Positions 25,369-62,150 of a stretch of 64,000 nt of DNA are shown here, in pieces. A model generated the notes under the pieces. The model did no database searches. It was not told the DNA's origin and saw only the letters and a program-made list of their open reading frames with translations. The position numbers and the translations under genes were made by a program. Location of the stretch: NCBI GenBank assembly GCA_000004695.1, contig CM000152.2:6293300-6357299 (forward strand), read 5' to 3'. This DNA comes from Dictyostelium discoideum. Taxonomy: Eukaryota. Each line of letters opens with the position of its first letter. Position 1 is the stretch's first letter.

Positions 25369-25953
25369 TTATACATCAACTTGTAATAAACCATATTTTA
25401 TAAAAACAAAAGTTGGAGTAGTTGGATCATCATCTTTATAATACATTAAAGCAACTAAACCATTTGCATCCATACTTGAACCAGTGAAAAAAGAATACTT
25501 TTTAAAGTTTTCACCATCCATCATTGTTTTTACAAAAGATTGTATACCTTTTTGAATGTGTTCAATTTTTTCATTATCTGAATTCGATGGTTGTTGTTTG
25601 ATATGGTTGATTAAATCTTTGATATATAATTTCATATAGGCTAAATATGATTTCTTATCGAATGATGTTTCAACCAATCTTAATTGTTCAACTAAATTAT
25701 TGATTTGAAATGTACCTGCTGCTTCAACATTTTCAAATTCGTCCTCTAAATTTGTTGATAATGTAATAGAATTATTATTATCAACCGTTGTTGAAATTGA
25801 TCCACCTAAAGAATTATTATTTACAACTACATTTAAATCCTTTGTAATCATTTTGGTTTTTACTTCAAATGTTACATCTCCAACCTTTATTTCATATCTA
25901 TCTGTTAATAGATCATCATGGGAATTACCAATTAAATCTTTATATAATTTCAT
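25369..25953 (-). CDS. Second, intronless and diverged TCTP-family paralogue (194 aa).
   Basis: 'MKLYKDLIGNSHDDLLTDRYEIKV' matches the TCTP N-terminus 'MIIYRDLISHDEMFSD'. 'RLVETSFDKKSY' is identical to the block in the gene at 10440..11349. 'KKYSFFTGSSMDANGLVALMYYKDDDPTTPTFVFIKYGL' matches TCTP signature 2 and the C-terminus. The Asn/Ser-rich insertion is specific to this copy. Confidence 0.75.
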   Translation of the reverse strand: MKLYKDLIGNSHDDLLTDRYEIKVGDVTFEVKTKMITKDLNVVVNNNSLGGSISTTVDNNNSITLSTNLEDEFENVEAAGTFQINNLVEQLRLVETSFDKKSYLAYMKLYIKDLINHIKQQPSNSDNEKIEHIQKGIQSFVKTMMDGENFKKYSFFTGSSMDANGLVALMYYKDDDPTTPTFVFIKYGLLQVDV

Positions 25954-32270: not shown

Positions 32271-35217
32271 CTAACTTCTAGATGACCTTGAGGATGTTAC
32301 CGTGGTTGATGGTTTTTGGAATTTTCTTTCTCTTTCTCTAATTTTTTCTTTTTCTCTTTCAATTTCTTTTTGTTTTTCAGCTTCTTTTTCTTTTTGTTTA
32401 ATTACTTTTTCATTTTCCCGATTCATTCTTTCAGATTTACTCATCATAGATTGTGATGGTGTTGATGAGGAAGAGGAAGAAGAAGGGGATACATTTGAAG
32501 ATTTTGAAGAGGATCTACCACTTTGTTCTCTTTCATTTCTTGTTGAGGATTTATCTGAATCTCTTTCATTATTCGATGATGTTGAAGATGATGTTGTTGA
32601 GTCTTTTGAATCTTCTTTCTTTCTTGATGATGATGATGATGATGATGGTTCACTTCTTTGTGATTCATCTTTTTTATTTGAATCTCTAGTTCTAGTGTTT
32701 TCATTTTTATCTGATCTATCTCTACTATTGGTAGAGGTTGAGGATGAGTCTCTGTCTCTGTTATCAGAGGTTTCTTTTCTGGCATTTGATGAGGTATCTC
32801 TATCTCTATCTCTATCTCTGTCCCTGTTGCCACTACCACTTGATGAGTATGAATGATCAGAATCTTTTCTACCACCACTACTTGATTGATTACTATCTGA
32901 TGCTCTATCCTTACTTTCTCGTTTACTTCCACTAGTTGTTGAAGAATAATCCCTATTTTCTCTATCTCTATTTGAGTCGCTTTTACTTGATGGATAAGAG
33001 TCATTCTCTCTTTTACCACTACCACTTGAGGATGATGTTTCTCTATCTCTTGTTGAATCTCTATCGTAATGATCTCTAGAACTTCTATTATCTGATCTAT
33101 CATCTCTTTCTTTATCTCTTGTACTTTCGCTTCTTCTGTCGGATGATCTATCTCTATCTCTTTCTCTATCCCTATCTCTGTCTCTATCTCTTCTGCTGCT
33201 GCTGCTACTGTCATGGTCATCCCTATCTCTGTCTCTTCTACTGCTGCTGCTGCTATCATGATCATCCCTATCTCTATCTCTTCTGCTGCTACTGTTACTG
33301 TTGCTATCATGATCATCCCTATCTCTTCGGCTGCTACCACTGTTACTGCTGCTACCACTGTCATGATCATCTCTATCTCTTCTGTTGCTGCTACCACTAT
33401 CATGATCATCTCTATCTCTTCTGTTGCTGCTGTTGTTACCACTATCATGATCATCTCTATCTCTTCTGCTGCTACCACTATCATGGTCATCTCTATCTCT
33501 ATCCCTGTCTCTTCTATCATAGTCATCTCTATCTCTATCTCTGTCTCTTCTATTATCGTAGTCATCTCTTTCCCTTCTTTCTCTATCTCTTTCTCTATCT
33601 CTTTCTCTTTCTCTTTCATCGACATCGTCATCTCTTTTTCTCTTTTCACCATGATAATCACCACCGTATCTGTCAGGTGAACTACCACCACTTGACCATT
33701 CATCTCTTTTTGATGAGGAATAAGGTCTACCACCACCACTACCACTGCCGCCGCTGCCGACACTACTACCACTACCGCCGCTACCATTTGGGGGTGGTGG
33801 ACCACCTTGATAAAAGTAAGGAGGAGGTGGACCGCCAATCATATTTGGAGGTGGTGCACCCCCTCTACCCATATAACCTCCTCTACCACTTGACATTGTA
33901 GCTCCATATGGAGGAGGTGGGAAAGGTGAACCTCTACCACCTCGACCCATATAACCTCCTCTCATTGGTGGAGAATAAAACTCTGGTTGCATTCCAATGG
34001 GTGGTGGTGGACCACCTCTACCACCTCTCATTGAAGCACCTACTGATCTCTTACCACCTCTACCACCTCTTGAATATGGATCAGCATAACCATATGGTGG
34101 TTGTTGTTGCTGTTGTTGTGGTGGTTGTTGATATGGATAAGGCATACCACCAAAATGTGGATGTGAACCACCACCACCACTGCCATTAACACCACCTCCA
34201 TTACCACCATGTTGTGAATTTGACAATGATGATGATGATAAAGATGATTGATGATGAATATTATTTGCAATATTACCACTATTTGTATTATTATTATTAT
34301 TATTATTATGAGAGTTTGAAGAAGAATTTAAATGTTGTTGATTCGATTGATTTGATTGACCTAAACTAATATTCTTAATGGTAGTAAGAGCATTATGATA
34401 ATTTTGTTGAGAAAGTAAACGAATTGTCATCTCTTTACCATTGATTTCTTTTTTCTCAGTTTTTGATTTTGCAAGTTGAGCTTGTTCAATATGTTCAAAC
34501 TCTACAAATGCATAACCTTTTGATTTACCATTATTTTCATTTTCAAAGATCTTTAATGTAACAATCTTTCCAAACTCTAAAAATACATTTTCAAGTTGTT
34601 GGTCAGTTGTCCACCATTCTAATCCACTAATATACAATGCTGGTGATAAATCAGTAGTATCAGTAATTGTCGTTGTTGTTGTTGTTGATGATGATTCTCC
34701 TGATACTGTAGATGATGATCCATTATTTGTTCTATTATTGTTATTATTGTTATTGTTATTTGATGTTGAATTTTGATCATTTTCATCATATGTTCCTAAT
34801 ATATTCTTTATATATATATAAAATGTAATTCAAAAAAATTAGAAAATTAATAATTTTAAAATTAAATAAAATAAAAATAAATTATGTAGTTACATCATCA
34901 TCATTTTCATCATAAGATTTTTCATCTTCAATTAATCTTATACTGTGAGTATTTTCTGTATCATCATCCATATTACTAGCACTTCTTCTTGATTTATTAT
35001 TATTATTATCATCTTCATCTTCATCATCATCTCTACGTGATGATCCATAATTACTATCACTATCTTCATGATTATTCGATTCACTACGTGTATTCATAGT
35101 TTCATCATTTTCATTTCTGTTTCTATATTTATTATCTTCTATTTCATCTTCTCCAAGTTCATCTTCTGTATGTTTCTTTTCATCTTTAAAGTCTCCATAT
35201 ATATCATAATCTTCCAT
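32271..35217 (-). CDS. CFIm68/CPSF6-family cleavage-factor subunit homologue of about 952 aa, exons 35217..34894 and 34805..32271.
   Basis: Exon 1 'MEDYDIYGDFKDEKKH..' matches the CPSF6 N-terminus 'DHIDIYADVGEEF'. Donor GAT|GTAACT at 34893, acceptor ATAAAG| at 34806 (88-nt intron, phase 0). The RRM 'ALYISGLEWWTTDQQLENVF..LKIFENENNGKSKGYAFVEF' matches the CPSF6 'ALYIGNLTWWTTDEDL..IKFFENRANGQSKGFALV'. A Gly/Pro-rich centre (GGPPPP, RGG) is followed by a very long RDRDRDDHDSGSS/RS-like repeat tail and a lysine/glutamate-rich C-terminus. The 'M' at 34637 in the ORF track is a TTG inside the RRM. Confidence 0.75.
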
Positions 35218-35640
35218 TATTCTATTTTATTTTATTTTCTTTATAAAAAATATATTATTATTATTGTTATTATTATATTTGATCGGTAATATTTGTTTAT
35301 AAAGAAATGAAAAAAAAAAAAAATGAAAAAAAAAAAAAAAAATGAAAAAAAAAAAAAAAACAATTTAATTACACAATTTTAATTTGTCCCTTCAATTTCA
35401 AAAATAAATTAAAAAAAAAAAAAAAATTAAAAAAAAATTAAAAAAATGATTATGGTTTGTTAAAATTTTTTTATTTTTTTTTAAAATTTATTAATATTAT
35501 ATTCACTAAAATGGAAATTTGTAGAGACCTAGAAGATTTTAAAAAAAGATTTTTTGTACCAAATTATTTATTGATAATAATTTCTCAATTCAAAGATGAT
35601 GACTTTACCAACAGCAGTTGAACTAGCTTGTTAATTATTA

Positions 35641-35671
<31 letters not shown>

Positions 35672-35764
35672 CCACAGTAAATAAAACTAATTAATACCAA
35701 TTGAATTATTAATTTTATCTTAATCCAGTTTATACTCTTAATTTTTTTTTATTTTTTTGTTTTT

Positions 35765-35800
<36 letters not shown>

Positions 35801-35917
35801 CGCTTTTTTGTGTTCATTTTTATTTTATTCCTTTTTTATTTTATATTACTTTATTTTTTTAAAAACATTTAATCTAGGTTTTTATTGTACAAACAATAAT
35901 CTGAAACATTCATTTAA

Positions 35918-36646
35918 ATGTTTAGGATAGCTAAAAGTTTAAGAAGCAGACTTAGAACTTTTGAAACTATAAAAAACTATGATAAACAAAAAAGAAATGA
36001 AAAAAATCAAGAAAAATTTATTAATACCGCAGGAGTAACACGAGAAAACCTTGAATTAAAAATTAAAGAATCAGAAAATAGACATATACTTGAGAAATTT
36101 ATTACAGTTATTCCCAGCAACTATTCACCAATAATATTAAATAAAGAACAAAAACTAAAAATAACCGATAATAAGTACAAAAGATTACCTCGAGCACAAC
36201 GAGATCAATTAAAATTACAATTACAAGAACAATCCACTTCATTCAGTTACATAAATATAGATGAAATTCAACAACAAAATGATAAAGATGATAAAGATGA
36301 TAACCAAATAGTAACATTAGTTGTTGAAGATAAAGAATATTTTGTTAAATTTAATAACTTTGCATTTTTAGCAGATGTTATCAAATCAGATGTTTTATAT
36401 TTATGTGGTTTGGTTAAAGATTTACCAACAAATCTTAATAGAGATAGTTCATATTTACGAGATACATCACTATTAAAACGTTTTTATGCATTTGGTAAAA
36501 ACAAAAAAAGAGTACCCAGTACAGCATGTGCCAAATGTTTGTTTTTTAATTATGATAAAATAATATTGGAATCTTCAAAGAATATAAAAGAAAAAAAATC
36601 AAACCCCAAAAATGCTTCAAAAAAAAAACAAAATTCAAGAAATTAA
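35918..36646 (+). CDS. Hypothetical basic protein with an N-terminal mitochondrial-presequence-like segment (MFRIAKSLRSRLRTF).
   Basis: A 242-aa ORF with codon usage typical of coding sequence and no recognisable domain. Confidence 0.35.
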   Translation: MFRIAKSLRSRLRTFETIKNYDKQKRNEKNQEKFINTAGVTRENLELKIKESENRHILEKFITVIPSNYSPIILNKEQKLKITDNKYKRLPRAQRDQLKLQLQEQSTSFSYINIDEIQQQNDKDDKDDNQIVTLVVEDKEYFVKFNNFAFLADVIKSDVLYLCGLVKDLPTNLNRDSSYLRDTSLLKRFYAFGKNKKRVPSTACAKCLFFNYDKIILESSKNIKEKKSNPKNASKKKQNSRN

Positions 36647-37180
36647 TATTTTCTACCATAAAATAGCAATTCCTAAATAAAAAAAATAAATAAATAAAAA
36701 AACTTAACTTTTTAAGTTAAAAAAAAAACATTCAAGTTGTGTTTAAAAAAAAAAAAAAAAAAAAAATATTTAACCTCAACCAAAAATAATAATAATAATA
36801 ACCAAATACAAAAATTCTAAATAACTTCTCAAACTAAAATAAAAAAATAATAATAACCAACAAAATAATAAATAAATTTGTATATATATATATTTTATTT
36901 TATTTTGTTTTATTTTTTTTTATTTAAAAAATTAAATATCCCACAATAACCAGTTTTCATATTTAATTATTTTAATTTTTTTTTAATAATCTTTTATTTC
37001 TTTTTATTTTTTTTTTTATCATTTTCTATTATTATTTTTCATCTGCCACTCTTTTCATTTTTAACAAAATTTCAGAAAATTTTCCAATATCCTTTATCAA
37101 TAGACAAGTTTTAAAATATTTCCCAAGAATTTAAAATTTATTATTATTTTTTTTTTTTTTTTTTAATTTATAGGATTAAA

Positions 37181-37525
37181 ATGGAAGAAAAAAAAGAAAT
37201 CGTTTATATCTATGAACAATCCACTGGAATCCTTTATGATGGAGAAGGACATGAAATTTGTAGAGGATATTCTGGTAAAGGTGAACACAAGAATCAACCA
37301 AGTTCTGAGGGTTTAGAAAATTATGGTCCAATACCCAGAGGTACATATTTATTGAAAAAACCCAAAGGTAAGGTAGTGATTGATTTAATACCACTCCAAA
37401 AACTTATAAATGGTAGACATTCATTCCAAATTCATGGAGACAGTATAGAAAATCCAGGTACTGCATCCCAAGGTTGTATTATACTAGGAAAAGATGTTAG
37501 ATTGAAAATTTCTGAACAACCTTAA
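37181..37525 (+). CDS. L,D-transpeptidase-fold Tlde1/DUF2778-like domain protein (114 aa) of bacterial type.
   Basis: 'CRGYSGKGEHKNQPSSEGLENYGPIPRGTYLL' matches the DUF2778 N-terminal block (..G.G...NNP.......GPIP.G.Y.I). 'FQIHGDSIENPGTASQGCIILGKDVR' matches the L,D-transpeptidase catalytic signature H-x(n)-(S/T)-x-G-C-(I/V). Single exon. Confidence 0.65.
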   Translation: MEEKKEIVYIYEQSTGILYDGEGHEICRGYSGKGEHKNQPSSEGLENYGPIPRGTYLLKKPKGKVVIDLIPLQKLINGRHSFQIHGDSIENPGTASQGCIILGKDVRLKISEQP

Positions 37526-38288
37526 ACTAAAAAGTTAATTGTTGTTTACTTTTATAAACCAAATAACATAACAACAGATAGCACCCTTCCAACTCCATCA
37601 CCAATTTCAACTCCACATCCAACCTCTATTCCACATCCATTCTTTTTTCCTTCACCAATCTTAACTCCACCTTCAACCTCAACTCCATCATCAACCACAA
37701 CTGCATCATCAACTTCAACTCCATCATCAACCTCAACCCCCTCATCAACCTCAAGTCTAAAGAATTTCAAATATGCATCATTACTTAAACAACAATCTAA
37801 TAACTTAACAACATCGTCACATGACTATACACAACCACAAACAAAACAAATTCCAACTTCAAATCCCACCTATTACCCTGAACTACCATTTGCATTAAAA
37901 TCACCAGAACAACAAATGTTAGATATTGAATTAATGAAGTATAAATCTTTTTCTCCTAAACCACCATTGAATATGAATAATATAACACCATCGTCATCGT
38001 TGTCATCATCGACTTTTATTAAAACAGAATTACAAAGTAAACCAAATTTAAGTTCATATTATTCTTCCCCCCTCTTCTTCTTCTTTGTCTTCTTTTTCTT
38101 CTTTTTCCTCTTCTTCTTCTGATATCAATAGTATAAGATATTCAAAATATTTTCAAACATCCAATTCATCCTTAGAGAATGTATCCTGTGGTTCATCTTT
38201 TAAAAGTTTTGATACCAGAACTCCAAATCTCTCTCTATTTAGTGATCCTAAAAATTCCTCCATTGGTTTCTCTTATAAATTTGGTTAA
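37526..38288 (+). pseudogene. S/T/P-rich frame with no internal stop that continues in the same frame past the TAA of the Tlde1-like ORF, then shifts frame at a C6 run. It is a decayed or mis-assembled C-terminal extension, or a separate low-complexity gene.
   Basis: The frame of 37181 is open from 37526 to 38121 ('TPSPISTPHPTSIPHP...STSTPSSTSTPSS...'). Removing one C from 'TCTTCCCCCCTCTTC' (about 38070) joins it to the Ser-rich frame ending at 38288. The opposite strand is also open across the C/A-rich part, so the coding call is weak. Confidence 0.3.
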
Positions 38289-38385
38289 TAATTTTTTCAT
38301 CCATCATTTTAGTAGTCCCAGGTAAAAAAAATGTCAAAAAATAAAACCTTCAGAATTAATTCATTCTATTGCAAAGTAGAAAAAT

Positions 38386-38427
<42 letters not shown>

Positions 38428-38537
38428 CTTCCTAGGATAATAGTTTTAAATAAAATGATTAGATATTTTAAATTCTTTTAGTTCTTTAAATTTTTGTTAT
38501 TTATTTATTTTATTTTTATTTTATTTTATTTTATTTT

Positions 38538-39398
38538 TTAATTAATTAATTTTGGTTCAATTTTAACATAAATTAATTTTGAAGGCTCAGATTTTATTGG
38601 TCTTTTTAAATGGGTAATTAATATTTTTGTATGTTGTGGATTAAATTTATCAAATGATAATTCTTTAATGATTAAAGTTTGATCAGATAATAATGAAGCT
38701 TTAAGTTTACTATTTTCCACACCAATATATTCAATTGTAACTTCTGAATTATAGCTATAAAATATTAATGTTGAATTATTTACAAAATCTGATGGATTTA
38801 AATCAATGATTTTTGAGATTTTATTATTCTCATCTTCATCATCATCAATATCATCAATATCATCAAATGAAATTACTTCTACCTTATGATTGATTTCACT
38901 ATCTTTACTAATTACACTAAAATCATAAGTTTCTTCAACTTCATTTAATTGAGAAGTTGCTATCAATGGTTGTTGAAAACAAATTGGTGAATTTGGTGAA
39001 ACTGAACAATTATTATCAATGAAATTATTTTTAACTGCTAATAGTGGTTGTTGTTGTTGTTGTTTATCATTATTTTCATTTGGTAAGAATACTGAATCAG
39101 TTTCATAACCACCATTAAAATTATAAGGTTTAAAATAATCTAAATCAATTGATTCATTTGGTTTTTGTCTATGGAATAATGATAATCTATTTCCTTTTAA
39201 AATTAATAAACTTCTATTGTAACCATCAAATGTTGAAAATGGTCCTGCTGTACCAACTACTGCACGACTAATACGATAAGTGAATGAATCATTTAATGTA
39301 CTTCCAATTGGTTCAATATGAATTTGTGTTGATTTACCTTTTCCATTTCTCCAAACCATATGATCATAATCACATTTTTCTTTAATTTTCCAATACAT
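38538..39398 (-). CDS. HutD/Ves-family cupin protein (PF05962-like) of bacterial type, intronless.
   Basis: 'MVWRNGKGKSTQIHIEP' matches the Ves 'NLWRNAAGETREI' block. 'TYRISRAVVGTAGPFSTFDGYNRSLLILKGN' matches the Ves '[30 protein letters not shown]' block. Confidence 0.7.
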   Translation of the reverse strand: MYWKIKEKCDYDHMVWRNGKGKSTQIHIEPIGSTLNDSFTYRISRAVVGTAGPFSTFDGYNRSLLILKGNRLSLFHRQKPNESIDLDYFKPYNFNGGYETDSVFLPNENNDKQQQQQPLLAVKNNFIDNNCSVSPNSPICFQQPLIATSQLNEVEETYDFSVISKDSEINHKVEVISFDDIDDIDDDEDENNKISKIIDLNPSDFVNNSTLIFYSYNSEVTIEYIGVENSKLKASLLSDQTLIIKELSFDKFNPQHTKILITHLKRPIKSEPSKLIYVKIEPKLIN

Positions 39399-39761
39399 TT
39401 TTATTTTAAAATTATTATTATTATAATTATTATATATTATATAAATAAATTATAATTTAAATATTATTTGAATTTTTTTTTTTTTTTTTTTTTTTTTTAT
39501 ATTAATGAAATTTTAAAATGAAATTTTCAATTTTTAATTACAGCGCAATTGTTAAAAGAAAAAAAAAAATAAAAAAAAAATAAAAAAAAAATTAAAAATT
39601 AAAATAAAAAAAAAAAATAAAAATTAAAATAAAAAAAAAAAAAAATCAAGAGAAGATTTTTTTTTTTTTTTTTTTTTATTTTACTTTTCTTTAAATATAT
39701 AAATATAAGTATATATACATATATATATATATAAATATAAAATTTAAAAAAAAAAAAAAAA

Positions 39762-41057
39762 ATGAATTCAATTCAATTTCCAACACATGAAAAAATTATT
39801 GAAGCAGTTGATAAATTACAAAATGAAGCAATTGAAAAATTAAAACAAATGGTATCATTCGATTCTGTATTAGGTAATGAAAGAGATGTTCAATTATATG
39901 TTGAAGAAGTTTTCAAATCATTAGATTTAAAGGTTGATAGATTTGAAATTGATTTAGAAAAGATTAAACATTTACCAGGTTTTTCACCAGTCAATTGGTC
40001 TTATAAAGGAAAAGAGAATGTAATTGGTATTCATGAACCAGCACCAACTCAACATGCATCAAAACCAGAATCAGAGAGAAAATCATTAATTTTCAATGGT
40101 CATGTTGATGTTGTACCAACAGGAAGAGATGCACTTTGGACTCAAAATCCATTCTCACCATATGTTAAGGATGGTCGTCTCTATGGTAGAGGTAGTGGTG
40201 ATATGAAAGCAGGTATCATTGCATTTATCATTGCCTATAAGGCAATTAAAGAATTGGGTTTTACTCCAGCCGCAAAAGTATTACTTCAAACTGTAGTCGA
40301 AGAGGAATGCACTGGTAATGGAACATTGGCTTGTTTAGAGAGAGGTTACCGTGCTGATGCTGCCATCATTCCTGAACCATTTCCAGAGATTATCACTGCT
40401 CAAGTTGGTTTAGTTTGGTGTAAAGTTAATGTACGTGGTAAACCAGCACACACATTGGAGATGAGTAAAGGTATTAATGCAATCGATGGTGCTATGTATC
40501 TTGTTGGTGAACTTAGAAAATTAGAGGCTGAATGGAACACTGTAAAACATGAAGCATTCTCTGACAAGTTTGACCATCCATTAAATTTCAATCTTGGTAT
40601 GATCAGTGGTGGTGAATGGACCTCTTCAGTACCATGTGAATGTTCATTTGATCTTCGTGCAGGTTTTTATCCAGGTACACCATTGGAAAAAGTTCGTAAA
40701 ACAATCATTGATACTATTGACCGTGCCGCTAAAGAAAAGAATTTACCATACACAATCGAATGGAATGGTTTCCAAGCTGAAGGTGTCACTCATAGTGCCT
40801 CTGGTGATATGATGAAACAATTGGGCGCCACTTATAAATCTGCACTTGGTACTGATGCCATTTATTCACCTGTACTTTGTACCACCGATAGTAGATTCTT
40901 TGAACTTTATTATAATATTCCTGCAACTTGTCTTGGTCCAGAATCAAAAGCAATTCACGGTATTGATGAAAGTGTCTCATTAGAAAGTTTAAGAGATATT
41001 ACAAGAGTTTTAGCTTGTTTTATTTCTGATTGGTGTGGTCTTCAACCACTTCATTAA
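39762..41057 (+). CDS. M20-family metallopeptidase (ArgE/DapE/acetylornithine-deacetylase-like), 431 aa, intronless.
   Basis: Metal-binding and catalytic motifs are present: 'LIFNGHVDVVP', 'GRGSGDMKAG', 'VVEEECTGNG' and a C-terminal 'HG.DE' block. The gene is GC-richer than the flanking genes. Confidence 0.85.
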   Translation: MNSIQFPTHEKIIEAVDKLQNEAIEKLKQMVSFDSVLGNERDVQLYVEEVFKSLDLKVDRFEIDLEKIKHLPGFSPVNWSYKGKENVIGIHEPAPTQHASKPESERKSLIFNGHVDVVPTGRDALWTQNPFSPYVKDGRLYGRGSGDMKAGIIAFIIAYKAIKELGFTPAAKVLLQTVVEEECTGNGTLACLERGYRADAAIIPEPFPEIITAQVGLVWCKVNVRGKPAHTLEMSKGINAIDGAMYLVGELRKLEAEWNTVKHEAFSDKFDHPLNFNLGMISGGEWTSSVPCECSFDLRAGFYPGTPLEKVRKTIIDTIDRAAKEKNLPYTIEWNGFQAEGVTHSASGDMMKQLGATYKSALGTDAIYSPVLCTTDSRFFELYYNIPATCLGPESKAIHGIDESVSLESLRDITRVLACFISDWCGLQPLH

Positions 41058-44240: not shown

Positions 44241-44630
44241 ATAATTAATAAATAATAAATAATATAAATAAATCAATATAAACAATATAAAAAAATTAAA
44301 TAATAAAAAAATGTAATAAATAACTTTAATATCACACTTAAAATAATTTTTATTGAAATATTATTTAAAAAAATTAAAAATTATAATTTCCACCCAGATC
44401 GGTATGAACTATTAATGTGGGATTTAAAAAAAAAAAAATTATTTTTAATTAAAATATTTACTTGGTGGTAAAAATATTAATTTCTATATTTGGCTGGATT
44501 ATTTTTAAATTTTAATTTCCCTATAATCTTTGAAAAAAAACCATAAAAAAAATTAATTTTCTTATTAAATTTACATAATACTTTAATATATAAAATAATT
44601 AATTAGTTAAAATTATATTACACCTTAAAA

Positions 44631-44935
44631 ATGGTAAAATCAAAAAAAATTATTAGAAATAGCAAATTATTAGAAATTCAAACAATGAATGATAAAGATT
44701 TTAAAAGATACTATGGAGTATCCAAGTCTGTATTCTTTTCCCTTTGCGAGAAATTACCAAAGGAGATAAAACAAATATGGGTTCTATGGTTATTTTCATT
44801 TGCAAAGATGGACTATCATTATTTAAAACCGCTTATAATTTTGGGTACACTGAGAAAACTTTCTCAGAAAAAATATGGTTTGTTCTTAATTGCTGTTATA
44901 GAAATTTGAAAATTGATGTAGGTTTTGGCTTATTC

Positions 44936-44992
<57 letters not shown>

Positions 44993-45128
44993 ATTTAAAG
45001 TTAAATATTATAATTTTATATTTTTATAATAATAATAAAAAATTTTTCCAAATGTTATATAAAAATTGTTTTTTTTATTACTTTTTTTGTTCCTTTTTTT
45101 TGTTTAATAATTAAAGTGCACCATTCTA

Positions 45129-45223
<95 letters not shown>

Positions 45224-45831
45224 ATTATTTCTTATTACTAATTGAAAAATAAAAGGATTTTGAATCCAGAAAAATTGATTACGATAATAAAAAGGTAAAA
45301 GATTTAACTAAAAATTCCGATAGAAATTTTCATTTTGCGCTCACAGCATTGGATACAACCGTTTTCCCAATTAGAACAATGGACGATCAATTTTATAGTA
45401 TAAAACACTCAAAGAGATGCCTAAAATACGAAGCAATTGTAACGCTAGATAAGGGAACATGTTGTCACCTCACTGGCCCCCATGTCGGCAGTGAACTTGA
45501 CCTGGTGGTCTACATAAAAGAGGTGGCTCACTTGGATTTACTGCCAGGGGAAAAAATCTTTGCCGACGAGGATTTTTGTTGTAATGAATTTAGTAGTAAA
45601 CTAATTAGACCAATAAAGAAAACCCATGAAACAATGTTGACCAATGAAGAACATTGTTTCAATAATTGGGTTTCATCAAACGGAATTATTGTGAAAAATT
45701 TTTTCAAAGATTTAAAAAAATTTGAGATCCTGAAAGATTGGAGATCATCAATTGATAAACACATGAAAATGGTGTATTTTCTTACATGGGTGGTCAATGA
45801 AGAAAATAAAACCCTATATAAAGAATTATAA
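44631..45831 (+). mobile_element. Harbinger/PIF-type (DDE_Tnp_4) transposase relic. It is frameshifted and interrupted by poly(T) and (ATT)n expansions.
   Basis: N-terminal 'MNDKDFKRYYGVSKSVFFSLCEKL' matches the HARBI1 'DEYLMSMYGFPRQFIYYLVELL' block. In a second frame, 'DGLSLFKTAYNFGYTEKTFSEKIWFVLNCC' matches '[29 protein letters not shown]'. ORF 45349..45831 matches the C-terminal half ('GEKIFADEDFCCNEFSSKLIRPIKK..LTNEEHCFNNWVSSNGIIVKNFFKDLKKFEIL'). The region expected to hold the first catalytic Asp is replaced by simple repeats. Confidence 0.65.
45128..45225. repeat. (ATT)n microsatellite of about 32 units inside the Harbinger relic.
   Basis: Directly visible. Confidence 0.9.
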
Positions 45832-46166
45832 ATAATATGTTTATTTTTTCATTTTTATTTTTTTTTTTTTCTATTTTTAGTTTTGCACTTTTTTTTTAGA
45901 TTTTTATTTTATTTTATTTTTTTTTTTTATTTTTTATTTTTTTTTTCTTAACTTAAAAAAAATCATCATATCACAATATTTGTTTTAATGGAGATACAGT
46001 TTAATTAAAAAAAAAAAACTGGATTTCCCATGTGAAAATTATAATTATATTTATAATTTTCATTTTTATAATTTTTTATTTTTTAATTATTTCGACCCCA
46101 CACATTATTTTTTTATTTTTTTCATTTTTTTTTTTTTTATTTTTATTTTTTTTTTTTCATTCCGAA

Positions 46167-47541
46167 ATGCCTCCCAAGTCCACAACAAACATTGACAATC
46201 AATATTTAAATGATTATATAAAAGATTTAAAAAAATGGCAAATTGAAATTAAAAATAAAGATAAAGAAATTAAACAATCTAAATTATATAATAATAATAA
46301 TAAAAATGATAATAGTACGACAGATCAGCCACAACAACAACAACAGCTAACAACATCACCATCAAAACCAAAAGCTGATAATATAATTGATAATACAAAT
46401 GAATCAATTAAATATAAAGAAAAAGGTAATAAATTATTTGGACAACAAAAATATAAAGAATCAATAGAATATTATACTTTAGCTATTCAATTAGATTCTA
46501 CCAATGCTGTATTATATGGTAATAGAGCAATGGCTTATTTAAAGATGAAAAATTATCAACAATGTGAAATTGATTCAAGTAGATGTTTAAATTTAGATCC
46601 AACTTATACAAAAGCATATCATAGACGTGGTATAGCTAGAGTTGAATTAAAACATTTTGAAGAAGCAATTCAAGATTTTAAACATTTATTAAAATCTGAT
46701 CCATCAAATAAAGATATATTAATTGAATTAAATAAAGCGACATCTCTACTTAAAGATCAAAAAGAAAAAGAAAAACAAAAAGAAATTGATGATAAATTAA
46801 AAAAAGAAAAAGAAGAAAAAGAAGAAAAAGAAAGAAAAGAAAAAGAAGAAAAATCAAAAATTATTCAAGAAATTAAAAATGTTCAACAACCAACACCAAT
46901 AACACCAATAACACCAATAACTTCAACAATTTCTAAATCTTCAAATTTAGTAGTGGAACAACAACCTCAAACTCAGCAACCTCAACAACCAAAAACATTA
47001 ACACTTCAAGAAAGATTAAATAGGATGGCAAATTTGAAAGCACCAATACCAAAGGTTGCACCAAAGAATTCATTTGAATTTGAAAAAGTTTATTTATCAT
47101 TTAATAATGATTTATCACAGTTATATCAATACTTTAAATTAATTGATCCAAATCAATTACCAATTGTGTTGGGTGATGCTTTAACACCTTCTTTATTCTC
47201 TGATATAATTTCTATTTTAGAAAAATATTATTTATTGTAAGTTTTATTATTATTATTGATTTTGTTGTTTTATTTATTTTTTTTAAAAAGAAATAATAAT
47301 AATAATAATAAAGAAAAAAAATATTCTAATAAAATTTAATTTAACATATAGAAATAAGGAATTTAATTTAATATTTAATATTTTAAATAATTTATTAAAT
47401 ATTAATAGAATGTCATTAAATATTCAATTTAGTTCAAAAAATGAAAAATCATCTTTAAAAAACATTATAAATTCATTAAATGATTGCAACACAATTGATA
47501 AATCTAAAATTGATTATTTATTAAATAAATACGCCATTTAG
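46167..47541 (+). CDS. TPR-repeat protein with an RPAP3_C-like C-terminal domain (RPAP3/Tah1-like R2TP adaptor). Main exon 46167..47236 and a tentative terminal exon 47409..47541.
   Basis: The real ATG is at 46167 (MPPKSTTN..). The ORF-track start at 46032 lies in a T-rich leader. Three TPR motifs are visible ('KEKGNKLFGQQKYKESIEYYTLAIQLDSTNAVLYGNRAMAYLKMKNYQQCEIDSSRCLNLDPTYTKAYHRRGIARVELKHFEEAIQDF'). A KE-rich linker follows, then 'FEFEKVYLSFNNDLSQLYQYFKLIDPNQLPIVLGDALTPSLFSDIISILEKYY'. The donor is TT|GTAAGT at 47237. The terminal exon is inferred from the acceptor ATTAATAG| and a phase-compatible frame with no stop. It is weakly supported. Confidence 0.55.
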
Positions 47542-47741
47542 AATATTTAAACCATAATTTCCATAAATTATTTTAATTTCTTTTTTTCTTTTATTTTTTT
47601 TATTTTTTTTGTAAAGAGAAAAAATATAAATAAATTATAATTGTTTTATTCTTTTTTATATATATATACACAATTGATATTAATTTATTTATTGTCTTTT
47701 TTTTTTTATTTTTTTTTTATTTATTTATTTTACATTAAAAA

Positions 47742-61924: not shown

Positions 61925-62150
61925 TTAAAAAAAAAATGAATAACACCAAGATCACATGTCCCATGCCAAAATTAATATGGCTGCTGGAATTAATATGGTA
62001 ATTTTGGCATGGGACTTATGTCTGCTAGAATTACCATATTAATTTCAGCAGCCATATTAATTTTGGCATGCACAGACCAACTATTTTAGGCTGAAATTAA
62101 TATGGCTGCTGAAATTAATATGGTAATTTTGGGCATAGAAATATAAAAAA
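61925..62150. repeat. Palindromic repeat cluster with three copies in forward-reverse-forward order. The 45-nt unit is 'AAATTAATATGGCTGCTGRAATTAATATGGTAATTTTGGCATG' and is itself internally repetitive. A 19-nt 'AATAACACCAAGATCACAT' leader precedes the cluster.
   Basis: Copies lie at about 61947-61995 (forward), 62023-62070 (reverse complement) and 62092-62140 (forward). The leader motif also occurs at 51459-51480. Confidence 0.7.

What the first reader, a model, noticed from the sequence alone, without database searches (positions are those of the whole stretch)
37181..41057. Three adjacent intronless genes of bacterial type (Tlde1/L,D-transpeptidase-like, HutD/Ves, M20 ArgE-like peptidase) form a candidate horizontally transferred island inside an otherwise typical amoeba gene neighbourhood
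All three ORFs are single-exon. Their flanking genes (CPSF6, ZNHIT3, sglA, sedlin, TCTP) all carry introns. Two of the three (DUF2778/Tlde1 and HutD/Ves) belong to families that, as far as I know, are essentially bacterial. The M20 gene is visibly GC-richer than its neighbours. Their arrangement (+, -, + over 3.9 kb) looks like a block rather than scattered acquisitions. For a bacterivorous amoeba, a retained peptidoglycan-targeting enzyme plus a peptidase would be a plausible prey-digestion or defence module.
Basis: partly seen in the sequence, partly recalled or inferred. Interest (0 to 1): 0.8.

Follow-up and report, generated by a model that had tools for sequence, protein, structure and literature searches.

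The report
Three unrelated genes, not an island
The three bacterial-looking genes in this Dictyostelium discoideum AX4 region are real but were not acquired together: two are old amoeba genes under purifying selection, and the third is a phage-type cell-wall-enzyme gene seen only in some D. discoideum strains, with a broken reading frame that suggests decay.

Summary
The window is D. discoideum AX4. All three ORFs exist at the stated coordinates and match the predicted Pfam families. The "single transferred island" reading fails, because the genes have three separate histories.

- **M20 (DDB_G0282881).** It falls in a 100%-bootstrap group with other eukaryotes: all dictyostelids sampled, Ceratiomyxa, Rhodelphis, and Balamuthia, whose copy has at least 4 introns. 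Alphaproteobacterial enzymes (~50% identity) form the other side of the tree. dN/dS is 0.04-0.08.
- **HutD (DDB_G0282879).** It is found in all four dictyostelid groups and has an intron in D. purpureum. dN/dS is 0.04-0.22. It may be an ancient transfer into the dictyostelid stem.
- **Synteny.** The sglA–zf-HIT–M20–HutD order is conserved out to Polysphondylium.
- **Composition.** GC3 of all three genes (0.07-0.17) is native.
- **Tlde1-like ORF.** This is the only lineage-specific piece. It belongs to a ~120-aa phage/prophage family (PHROG 24118), with at most 51% identity to any bacterial copy. It is not annotated in AX4, and no other eukaryotic copy was found. Its 1.17-kb segment is missing from another D. 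discoideum isolate, and the ORF is absent at this locus in D. citrinum, D. firmibasis and D. purpureum.
- **Likely decay.** An in-frame TAA cuts off the conserved last β-strand, yet the frame stays open for 199 more codons. A second strain carries different frameshifts. This points to a decaying gene.

The parts
37181..37525 (+). Tlde1-like (DUF2778, L,D-transpeptidase fold) ORF of 114 codons plus TAA. The motif His85 (IHGD) and Cys99 (SQGC) are present. It lacks the family's last beta-strand.
   Evidence: Pfam PF10908 E=1.7e-13. PHROG 24118 E=2.6e-28. H85 and C99 are invariant columns in the alignment. A homologue model (pLDDT 91) matches only L,D-transpeptidases.
37523..37525 (+). In-frame TAA, interpreted as a secondary nonsense mutation. 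It aligns with the conserved Asp of the ...S-G-D-x-x-L-x-V-V C-terminus of the bacterial homologues. The next codons, TKKLIVVY, encode the missing strand.
   Evidence: C-termini of about 78 bacterial homologues. The strain behind L004 has GAA at this codon.
37526..38122 (+). Continuation of the same reading frame: 199 stop-free codons, rich in Ser/Thr/Pro, with 18-nt tandem units at about 37598-37772. Probably the former C-terminal extension of the gene.
   Evidence: Translation. About 1 in 10,000 shuffles is stop-free. Repeat family D5. L004 carries +2 and -1 frameshifts here.
38067..38072 (+). C6 run where the AX4 frame slips by one base relative to the downstream tail ORF. L004 has one base fewer here and reads through in frame.
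38085..38288 (+). 'Tail' ORF (...DINSIRYSKYFQ...GFSYKFG*). It is retained in isolate GCA_054859385.1, where NCBI splices it to the DDB_G0282875 orthologue.
36921..38089 (.). 1.17-kb segment holding the upstream AT-rich DNA, the Tlde1-like ORF and most of the S/T/P tract. It is absent from D. discoideum isolate GCA_054859385.1 (M20 dS 0.048 from AX4). Both breakpoints lie in T-rich low-complexity DNA.
   Evidence: blastn and junction alignment
35504..38497 (.). Interval replaced by about 300 bp in D. citrinum. In D. firmibasis it is about 800 bp and holds only a diverged orthologue of DDB_G0282875. tblastn finds no Tlde1 in the syntenic loci of D. citrinum, D. firmibasis or D. purpureum.
35918..36646 (+). 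DDB_G0282875, a 242-aa single-exon gene with no Pfam or PHROG match. It evolves fast (dN/dS 0.94 against the other isolate).
38538..39398 (-). HutD/Ves-family gene DDB_G0282879 (286 aa). Only the N-terminal cupin half matches the family profile, and there is a low-complexity insert. It is under purifying selection.
39399..39761 (.). 363-bp AT-rich spacer between the divergently oriented HutD and M20 genes. A shared promoter is my inference.
   Evidence: Coordinates. The divergent pair is conserved in D. citrinum, D. firmibasis, D. purpureum and P. violaceum.
39762..41057 (+). M20 ArgE/DapE-type deacylase gene DDB_G0282881 (431 aa), under strong purifying selection.

Best explanation
The interval holds three genes with three unrelated histories that are adjacent by chance.

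1. **M20 (DDB_G0282881).** This is a conserved metabolic deacylase of the ArgE/DapE type. It is inherited vertically within Amoebozoa. Its deeper ancestry is bacterial, and the nearest named bacterial relatives are all Alphaproteobacteria. It most likely hydrolyses an N-acylated amino compound with a two-metal centre (inferred from family knowledge).

2. **HutD (DDB_G0282879).** This gene was already present in the last common ancestor of Dictyostelia. It may be an ancient bacterial acquisition. It is a constrained cupin-type small-molecule-binding protein. It forms a conserved head-to-head pair with M20.

3. **The Tlde1-like ORF.** This is the 5' remnant of a gene derived from a widespread phage/prophage family of about 120-aa L,D-transpeptidase-fold Cys/His enzymes. 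In the D. discoideum lineage it sat in one long reading frame, about 369 codons, with a Ser/Thr/Pro-rich tail. It is now being lost:
   - AX4 has a nonsense codon that removes the last beta-strand, plus a downstream frameshift.
   - A second strain has two frameshifts and replacements at two invariant prolines.
   - A third isolate lacks the segment.

   If the intact enzyme were active, it would cleave or exchange the mDAP-D-Ala bond of peptidoglycan stem peptides through the Cys nucleophile. The AX4 product has no obvious signal peptide and is truncated, so it is probably non-functional.
For: **Identity of the window.** Exact matches to AX4 proteins.

**M20**
- 84-74% identity across dictyostelids and 55% to Balamuthia.
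- Ceratiomyxa, Rhodelphis and Synstelium copies identified.
- In an NJ tree, the split of 17 eukaryote-side sequences from 103 bacterial sequences has 100/100 bootstrap.
- An unnamed member of that side sits next to RPB9- and Rpb7-like genes.
- The Balamuthia gene is split into at least 5 exons and has eukaryotic neighbours.
- dN/dS is 0.04-0.08.

**HutD**
- A profile search of 1.84 billion proteins gave 7 hits below 1e-30, then a gap to about 1e-22. Six of the seven were identified as dictyostelid, including Tieghemostelium, Cavenderia and Acytostelium. The seventh (P0010) is an unnamed EukProt entry.
- D. purpureum has a canonical GT..AG intron.
- dN/dS is 0.04-0.22.
- 31-46% identity to bacterial HutD.

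**Synteny.**

**Tlde1-like ORF**
- PHROG 24118; 58 phage genomes; 111 IMG/VR contigs; 158 bacterial genomes at up to 51% identity.
- One homologue sits in a 54-kb phage-like contig.
- It is absent from syntenic loci and from one isolate.
- No AX4 or other eukaryotic protein shares words with it.
- The C-terminal truncation is shown by alignment.
- The downstream frame is open beyond chance.
- Independent lesions occur in L004.
- The fold was confirmed on homologue P0005.
Against: - Only five substitutions separate the two Tlde1 alleles (dN/dS 0.4), so relaxed selection is not shown statistically.
- The 114-aa product keeps both motif residues and could still be active or be rescued by read-through.
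- No expression data were available.
- Whole genomes of other dictyostelids could not be searched, so a copy elsewhere cannot be excluded.
- Whether the 1.17-kb difference is a deletion in the other isolate or an insertion in the AX4 lineage is inferred, not proven.
- The M20 tree contains only the 120 most similar sequences, is distance-based and has no outgroup.
- The taxonomy of HutD's nearest non-dictyostelid relatives is unknown.
Confidence: 0.7

Rival explanations
1. One reading: the three genes arrived together as one bacterial island and are kept as a prey-digestion or defence module.
For: All three match families that are abundant in bacteria. They are adjacent and single-exon in AX4.
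Against: - Their ages differ. M20 is shared with Balamuthia, Ceratiomyxa and Rhodelphis. HutD is dictyostelid-wide. Tlde1 is seen only in some D. discoideum lineages.
- The M20 locus in Caenispirillum has no HutD nearby.
- GC3 is native for all three.
- Relatives carry introns.
- Tlde1 is truncated.
Confidence: 0.03
2. The Tlde1-like ORF is a working, recently acquired enzyme, either as the 114-aa protein or after stop-codon read-through into the S/T/P tail. D. discoideum would use it on peptidoglycan or muropeptides, and it would vary between strains.
For: - The motif His and Cys and other invariant residues are intact in AX4.
- Codon usage is native.
- An AT-rich upstream region is present.
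- The long open frame after the TAA is what read-through would need.
- Homologues in Paraburkholderia, whose relatives live with Dictyostelium (my own background knowledge), reach 50-51% identity.
Against: - The conserved terminal strand is lost.
- There is no obvious signal peptide (by inspection).
- A second allele has frameshifts plus P50L and P92L at invariant positions.
- The segment is absent from one isolate.
- The ORF is not in the AX4 proteome.
Confidence: 0.22
3. The Tlde1-like gene is old in group-4 Dictyostelium and was lost repeatedly, or it moved here from another locus, rather than being gained recently.
For: - Codon and amino-acid composition are fully native, and the gene is joined to a typical Dictyostelium low-complexity tail.
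- The gene is unannotated even in AX4, so its absence from other species' proteomes says little.
Against: - It is absent from the syntenic interval in three species, which would need three losses.
- Low-GC bacterial homologues with GC3 of 0.17-0.24 exist, so native-like composition does not require long residence.
Confidence: 0.15
4. The Tlde1-like ORF is bacterial or phage contamination, or an assembly artefact.
For: Its closest relatives are all prokaryotic or viral.
Against: - It is embedded between AX4 genes on one contig.
- GC is 0.33 and GC3 is 0.157.
- It was recovered independently at 98% nucleotide identity, with the same flanks, in Logan assemblies.
Confidence: 0.01

Closest known systems
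Tlde1 / Tae5 T6SS effectors of Salmonella (DUF2778, PF10908)
   Same: Same Pfam domain and the same type of His...Cys motif. In the Salmonella effector, H121 and C131 are essential and the enzyme is an L,D-carboxypeptidase on mDAP-D-Ala (bioRxiv 10.1101/2020.02.18.954545). A homologue model has the L,D-transpeptidase fold.
   Different: The amoeba ORF belongs to a shorter (~120 aa) phage/prophage subfamily with an N-terminal YEQSTG motif. The His-Cys spacing is wider: 14 residues against 10. There is no T6SS, no immunity gene and no periplasmic targeting. The AX4 copy is truncated.
PHROG 24118: phage proteins of unknown function, for example the DUF2778 protein Y3_191 of Erwinia phage vB_EamM_Y3
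   Same: This is the best profile match (E=2.6e-28, covering 2-110 of 121 positions). Length and domain layout are the same, and identity is 44-47%.
   Different: It is encoded in a eukaryotic chromosome, has Dictyostelium codon usage, is joined in frame to a Ser/Thr/Pro-rich tract, and its reading frame is disrupted.
The 16-18 published candidate bacterial transfers in D. discoideum (Sucgang et al. 2011, PMC3188802, Table 2)
   Same: Bacterial-type domains sitting in native-looking amoeba genes. One of them is a peptidoglycan-related peptidase (Peptidase S13, pscA).
   Different: None of the three families is on that list. All listed genes have D. purpureum orthologues. The Tlde1-like ORF has none at the syntenic locus and varies among D. 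discoideum isolates.
Pseudomonas HutD (PDB 5fcc, 1yll) and E. coli Ves
   Same: The N-terminal cupin half aligns (E about 1e-10) with 31-46% identity to bacterial copies.
   Different: The dictyostelid proteins are about 90 residues longer, with a low-complexity insert and a diverged C-terminal half. They have no hut-operon context, and one carries a spliceosomal intron.
ArgE/DapE-family M20 deacylases of Rhodospirillales (Azospirillum, Caenispirillum)
   Same: About 50% identity over the full length, with the same two domains. Candidate metal and catalytic residues are invariant: H114, D116, D147, E181, E182 and E205.
   Different: The amoeba gene sits in a separate eukaryote-containing clade. 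It is not in a catabolic operon like the Caenispirillum gene.

Membership tests
Tlde1 domain (PF10908 / DUF2778) | Profile match above Pfam's gathering score | tested here: met
   51.5 bits against a cut-off of 30.1, residues 27-109.
Tlde1 domain (PF10908 / DUF2778) | Conserved His and Cys motif of the L,D-transpeptidase type | tested here: met
   H85 and C99 are invariant columns. The role of the equivalent residues comes from the Salmonella work.
Tlde1 domain (PF10908 / DUF2778) | Complete domain, including the C-terminal beta-strand | tested here: not met
   The TAA at 37523 precedes the ...L-x-V-V strand that ends the bacterial homologues examined. That strand is E116-120 in the pLDDT-91 model of P0005.
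Tlde1 domain (PF10908 / DUF2778) | L,D-transpeptidase (YkuD-like) fold | tested here: inconclusive
   The model of the AX4 ORF itself was poor (pLDDT 62) and gave no structural matches. The model of homologue P0005 matched 17 L,D-transpeptidase chains at probability 0.95-1.0.
T6SS effector Tlde1/Tae5 system | T6SS linkage, a cognate immunity gene and delivery to the periplasm | tested here: not met
   The neighbours are ordinary amoeba genes. By inspection, the N-terminus MEEKKEIVYIYEQ has no signal-peptide character.
T6SS effector Tlde1/Tae5 system | L,D-carboxypeptidase or exchange activity on peptidoglycan | not testable with these tools
   Needs a muropeptide assay.
PHROG 24118 (phage protein, unknown function) | Near full-length profile match | tested here: met
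   E=2.6e-28, profile positions 2-110 of 121.
HutD (PF05962) | Profile match above the gathering score | tested here: met
   80.4 bits against a cut-off of 25, but only profile positions 3-93 of 181.
HutD (PF05962) | Bicupin architecture with a second cupin half | tested here: inconclusive
   Neither Pfam nor the PDB profile search matched the C-terminal half. That half is conserved among dictyostelids.
Peptidase M20 (ArgE/DapE type) | Catalytic and dimerisation domains, with conserved metal and catalytic residues | tested here: met
   PF01546 113 bits and PF07687 59 bits. H114, D116, D147, E181, E182 and E205 are invariant in 120 sequences. Their assignment as ligands rests on family knowledge.
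Horizontally transferred gene island | All members acquired together: same age and same donor context | tested here: not met
   Different phyletic depths. No HutD beside the Caenispirillum M20.
Horizontally transferred gene island | Composition or codon usage unlike the host | tested here: not met
   GC3 of 0.07-0.17 lies within the host range.
Horizontally transferred gene island | Absent from the syntenic position in close relatives | tested here: inconclusive
   Met for the Tlde1-like ORF only. Not met for HutD and M20.

The most novel reading that the evidence does not exclude
D. discoideum carries a strain-variable, phage-derived L,D-transpeptidase-fold enzyme. In some wild strains it would be intact as a Tlde1 domain fused to a Ser/Thr/Pro-rich tail, and it would act on peptidoglycan of prey or of resident Paraburkholderia symbionts. 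That would be a very young bacteria/phage-to-amoeba transfer caught while still polymorphic. Separately, the conserved head-to-head HutD–M20 pair could be a co-regulated two-gene unit handling an N-acyl-glutamate-type metabolite.
Probability: 0.12. Interest if true: 0.7.

Novelty: new member of a known kind. Interest (0 to 1): 0.35.

Why it matters
All published D. discoideum transfer candidates predate the split from D. purpureum (PMC3188802). A phage-type cell-wall-enzyme gene that is present, broken or absent depending on the D. discoideum lineage would be a rare view of the short life of a transferred gene in a bacterivorous eukaryote. Such a gene may arrive, gain a host-style tail and then decay.

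The result also corrects a tempting over-reading. Adjacency, missing introns and bacterial-type domains do not make an island. Two of the three genes are ordinary, conserved amoeba genes.

Tried and rejected
- **Structure of the AX4 114-aa ORF.** The AlphaFold model had pLDDT 62 and Foldseek found nothing. I used homologue P0005 instead.
- **PDB sequence search with the Tlde1 profile.** Only a weak L,D-transpeptidase hit, 4lpq, at E=0.56.
- **Transposon-type borders of the lineage-specific segment.** There are no tRNA genes in the window. The only repeats are A/T low-complexity, with no terminal repeats or target duplications.
- **Donor of Tlde1.** The NJ tree with bootstrap gives no supported sister. 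Desulfuromonas/Thiotrichaceae-type sequences are sister in about 47% of replicates and Paraburkholderia in 18%.
- **Dating the transfer by composition.** Rejected, because low-GC bacterial homologues already have GC3 of 0.17-0.24.
- **Co-transfer of HutD with M20.** No HutD lies next to the Caenispirillum M20 or the Balamuthia M20. In Tieghemostelium the two genes share a contig but are not within 8 kb.
- **An intron that would remove the TAA.** No plausible GT...AG of workable size and frame, by reading the sequence.
- **AX4 gene model DDB_G0282877.** By numbering it should lie between DDB_G0282875 and DDB_G0282879. I could not recover it. It shares no words with the Tlde1 ORF, and the 68-aa ORF is not in the collection.
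- **Literature.** No paper text mentions DDB_G0282875 to DDB_G0282881, and no paper links Tlde1 or DUF2778 to a Dictyostelium gene.
- **Phage gene context.** It gave no functional clue.
- **Eichinger 2005.** Not held in the library, so the genome-wide fraction of intronless genes is not cited.

Full report
**1.

The translations of three ORFs are exact matches to D. discoideum AX4 proteins:
- 35918-36646 is XP_639373.1 (DDB_G0282875).
- 38538-39398 on the minus strand is XP_639375.1 (DDB_G0282879).
- 39762-41057 is XP_639376.1 (DDB_G0282881).

All pass Pfam's curated thresholds:
- Tlde1_dom PF10908: 51.5 bits, E=1.7e-13.
- HutD PF05962: 80.4 bits, E=2.4e-22, covering only the N-terminal half of the profile.
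- Peptidase_M20 plus M20_dimer: 113 and 59 bits.

The supporting details of the observation are weaker.
- The nearest upstream gene, DDB_G0282875, is also single-exon.
- The 194-aa ORF at 25369-25953 lies where the intron-free 194-aa D. citrinum TCTP model maps. The claim that all flanking genes have introns therefore looks wrong, although I did not run Pfam on that ORF.
- M20's higher GC (0.354) equals that of sglA and comes from codon positions 1 and 2.
- GC3 is 0.171 for M20, 0.070 for HutD and 0.157 for Tlde1. Genuine-looking ORFs elsewhere in the window range from 0.04 to 0.34. Nothing is compositionally foreign.

**2. M20 is an old eukaryotic gene with bacterial relatives**

Its relatives run as follows:

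| Source | Identity to AX4 |
|---|---|
| D. purpureum | 84% |
| P. violaceum, Tieghemostelium lacteum | 74% |
| Synstelium polycarpum | 68% |
| Balamuthia mandrillaris | 55% |
| Ceratiomyxa fruticulosa | 53% |
| Rhodelphis limneticus | 47% |
| Bacteria | about 50% |

Every named bacterial hit is an alphaproteobacterium: Azospirillum, Caenispirillum, Roseospira, Telmatospirillum or Methylocystaceae.

I built a neighbour-joining tree from the 120 best hits.
- The 17 sequences that include every eukaryote-labelled one separate from the 103 bacterial sequences in 100 of 100 bootstrap replicates.
- Dictyostelia are monophyletic in 100 of 100 replicates.
- One unnamed metagenomic member of the eukaryote side lies next to RPB9- and Rpb7-like genes, so it is not bacterial.
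- The Balamuthia gene is split into at least five exons and is flanked by Yip1 and F-box/RhoGEF genes.

Purifying selection is strong: dN/dS is 0.04 against another D. discoideum isolate, 0.04 against D. citrinum and 0.08 against D. firmibasis.

The bacterial ancestry is therefore ancient, either alphaproteobacterial or mitochondrial. The tree has no outgroup, so it cannot tell these apart.

**3. HutD is dictyostelid-wide**

I searched a profile of seven dictyostelid sequences against 1.84 billion proteins.
- Seven hits fell below 1e-30, and then scores dropped to about 1e-22.
- Six of the seven were identified as dictyostelid, including Tieghemostelium, Cavenderia and two Acytostelium copies, so all four taxon groups are covered. 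The seventh (P0010) is an unnamed EukProt entry.
- The next hits are about 200-aa proteins on short metagenome contigs. One is named Ves. Their taxonomy is unknown.

Other evidence:
- The N-terminal half is 31-46% identical to HutD genes on Rhizobium, Klebsiella and Azospirillum plasmids.
- It matches Pseudomonas HutD structures 5fcc and 1yll at E about 1e-10.
- D. purpureum HutD has a canonical GT...AG intron after codon 46.
- dN/dS is 0.04-0.22.

HutD is thus a constrained gene that, if transferred at all, arrived before the dictyostelid radiation. It is not among the 16 published candidates (PMC3188802).

**4. Synteny**

- The order sglA – zf-HIT – M20 – HutD is conserved in D. citrinum, D. 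firmibasis, D. purpureum and Polysphondylium violaceum.
- M20 – zf-HIT – sglA is also conserved in Tieghemostelium. There HutD is on the same 1-Mb contig but not adjacent.
- The M20 gene of Caenispirillum sits in a catabolic operon with an ABC transporter, an aminotransferase, a BKACE enzyme and a DAO oxidase. No HutD is nearby.
- Balamuthia M20 has no HutD neighbour either.

Nothing supports co-transfer of the two genes.

**5. The Tlde1-like ORF is a different story**

*Family.*
- It matches PHROG 24118 (unknown function) better than Pfam, at E=2.6e-28.
- tblastn finds it in 58 phage genomes at 44-47% identity, mostly 260-kb Erwinia and Dickeya jumbo phages.
- It also occurs in 111 IMG/VR contigs and 158 bacterial genomes scattered across phyla.
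- The best bacterial matches are 51%: Desulfuromonas, a Desulfobulbaceae MAG and Paraburkholderia.
- One metagenomic homologue lies in a 54-kb contig with an integrase, an ERF recombinase and tail genes.
- A confident model of that homologue (pLDDT 91) matches only L,D-transpeptidases. The top 17 PDB hits have probability 0.95-1.0.
- The family's His and Cys are present in AX4. Their catalytic role is known from Salmonella Tlde1.

*Distribution in eukaryotes.* Among 5.8 billion protein clusters, the only other eukaryote-like copy is a 97%-identical Logan ORF, and no annotated AX4 protein contains the domain.

*Age.*
- tblastn finds no Tlde1 in the syntenic loci of D. citrinum, D. firmibasis or D. 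purpureum.
- AX4 35504-38497 corresponds to about 300 bp in D. citrinum.
- In D. discoideum isolate GCA_054859385.1 (M20 dS 0.048 from AX4; D. citrinum is 0.29), positions 36921-38089 are missing. DDB_G0282875 and the 3' tail at 38090-38288 are present.

*State of the gene.*
- The bacterial homologues examined (about 78) end ...S-G-D-x-x-L-x-V-V.
- AX4 reads ...KISEQP-TAA-TKKLIVVY. The TAA aligns with the conserved Asp, and the last strand is encoded after it.
- The frame then stays open for 199 codons of Ser/Thr/Pro-rich sequence. About 1 in 10,000 shuffles does this.
- It then slips by one base at a C6 run into a 67-codon tail.
- The independent allele L004 is 98% identical in DNA. It has GAA instead of TAA. 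It also has a +2 frameshift 14 nt later, a -1 frameshift further on, and P50L and P92L at invariant prolines.
- L004 reads in frame across the C-run into the tail. I take this as evidence that the tail belonged to the same gene, so the other isolate more likely carries a deletion (my inference, about 70%).

Three lineages with three different lesions is the pattern of a gene being lost. With only 3 non-synonymous and 2 synonymous differences, this cannot be shown statistically.

*Timing.* Native-like composition does not date the transfer, because the Snodgrassella homologues already have GC 0.34 and GC3 of 0.17-0.24. The donor is unresolved.

**6. Mechanism**

Shown here:
- family membership of all three ORFs;
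- the L,D-transpeptidase fold of the Tlde1 family (on a homologue);
- presence of the conserved His/Cys motif;
- the truncation;
- the phyletic patterns;
- the selection regimes on HutD and M20.

Inferred:
- An intact Tlde1-like enzyme would use the Cys thiol to attack the mDAP-D-Ala bond of peptidoglycan stem peptides, as Salmonella Tlde1 does.
- The AX4 product is probably inactive, because it lacks a core strand and has no obvious route to a bacterial cell wall.
- M20 is a two-metal N-acyl-amino-acid deacylase.
- HutD is a cupin that binds a small metabolite. Its function is unknown even in Pseudomonas (PMC8034625).
- The conserved 363-bp head-to-head spacer suggests that HutD and M20 are co-regulated.

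**7. Verdict**

- The island interpretation is not supported.
- The part worth keeping is the Tlde1-like ORF. It is unannotated, phage-type, varies among D. discoideum lineages and is probably decaying.
- It is a new member of a known kind (bacterial or phage genes in amoebae), of moderate interest.

Noticed in passing
window 61974-62060: Rfam mir-7131 microRNA precursor: 96 bits on the + strand and 91 bits on the - strand, against a gathering score of 74.
   Followed up: no
window about 44631-45831 (ORFs 44631-44909 and 45349-45831): A gene annotated with DDE_Tnp_4 / DDE_Tnp_1 (Harbinger-like transposase) in the orthologous locus of isolate GCA_054859385.1. The surrounding window 44295-46107 has no counterpart in D. 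citrinum, and 44376-47699 has none in D. firmibasis. This looks like a second lineage-specific insertion about 5 kb from the Tlde1 segment.
   Followed up: partly
window 35918-36646 (DDB_G0282875): An orphan gene with no Pfam or PHROG match. dN/dS is 0.94 between AX4 and another D. discoideum isolate. A 32-47% identical orthologue sits at the same position in D. firmibasis, and D. citrinum has none. It is either evolving neutrally or under diversifying selection.
   Followed up: partly
L009 3410-4639 (D. discoideum GCA_054859385.1): NCBI's gene model splices the DDB_G0282875 orthologue to the leftover 'tail' exon of the Tlde1-containing gene, giving 269 aa. This is probably an annotation artefact caused by the deletion.
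   Followed up: partly
L090-L092 (JGI metagenome contigs of 5.5-6.2 kb): An M20 homologue (P0071) in the eukaryote-side clade lies in tightly packed, apparently intron-free DNA beside RPB9- and Rpb7-like genes. It could come from a compact eukaryote or a giant virus.
   Followed up: no
window 32271-34430: The CPSF6-like gene region reaches GC 0.48 with strong negative GC and AT skew. It carries long overlapping ORFs on both strands. This is low-complexity coding sequence that inflates ORF lists.
   Followed up: no
window 38538-41057 and loci L001-L003, L008: The head-to-head HutD/M20 pair has a short spacer (about 310-510 bp) that is kept in D. citrinum, D. firmibasis, D. purpureum and P. violaceum but not in Tieghemostelium. 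The two genes may be co-regulated.
   Followed up: partly
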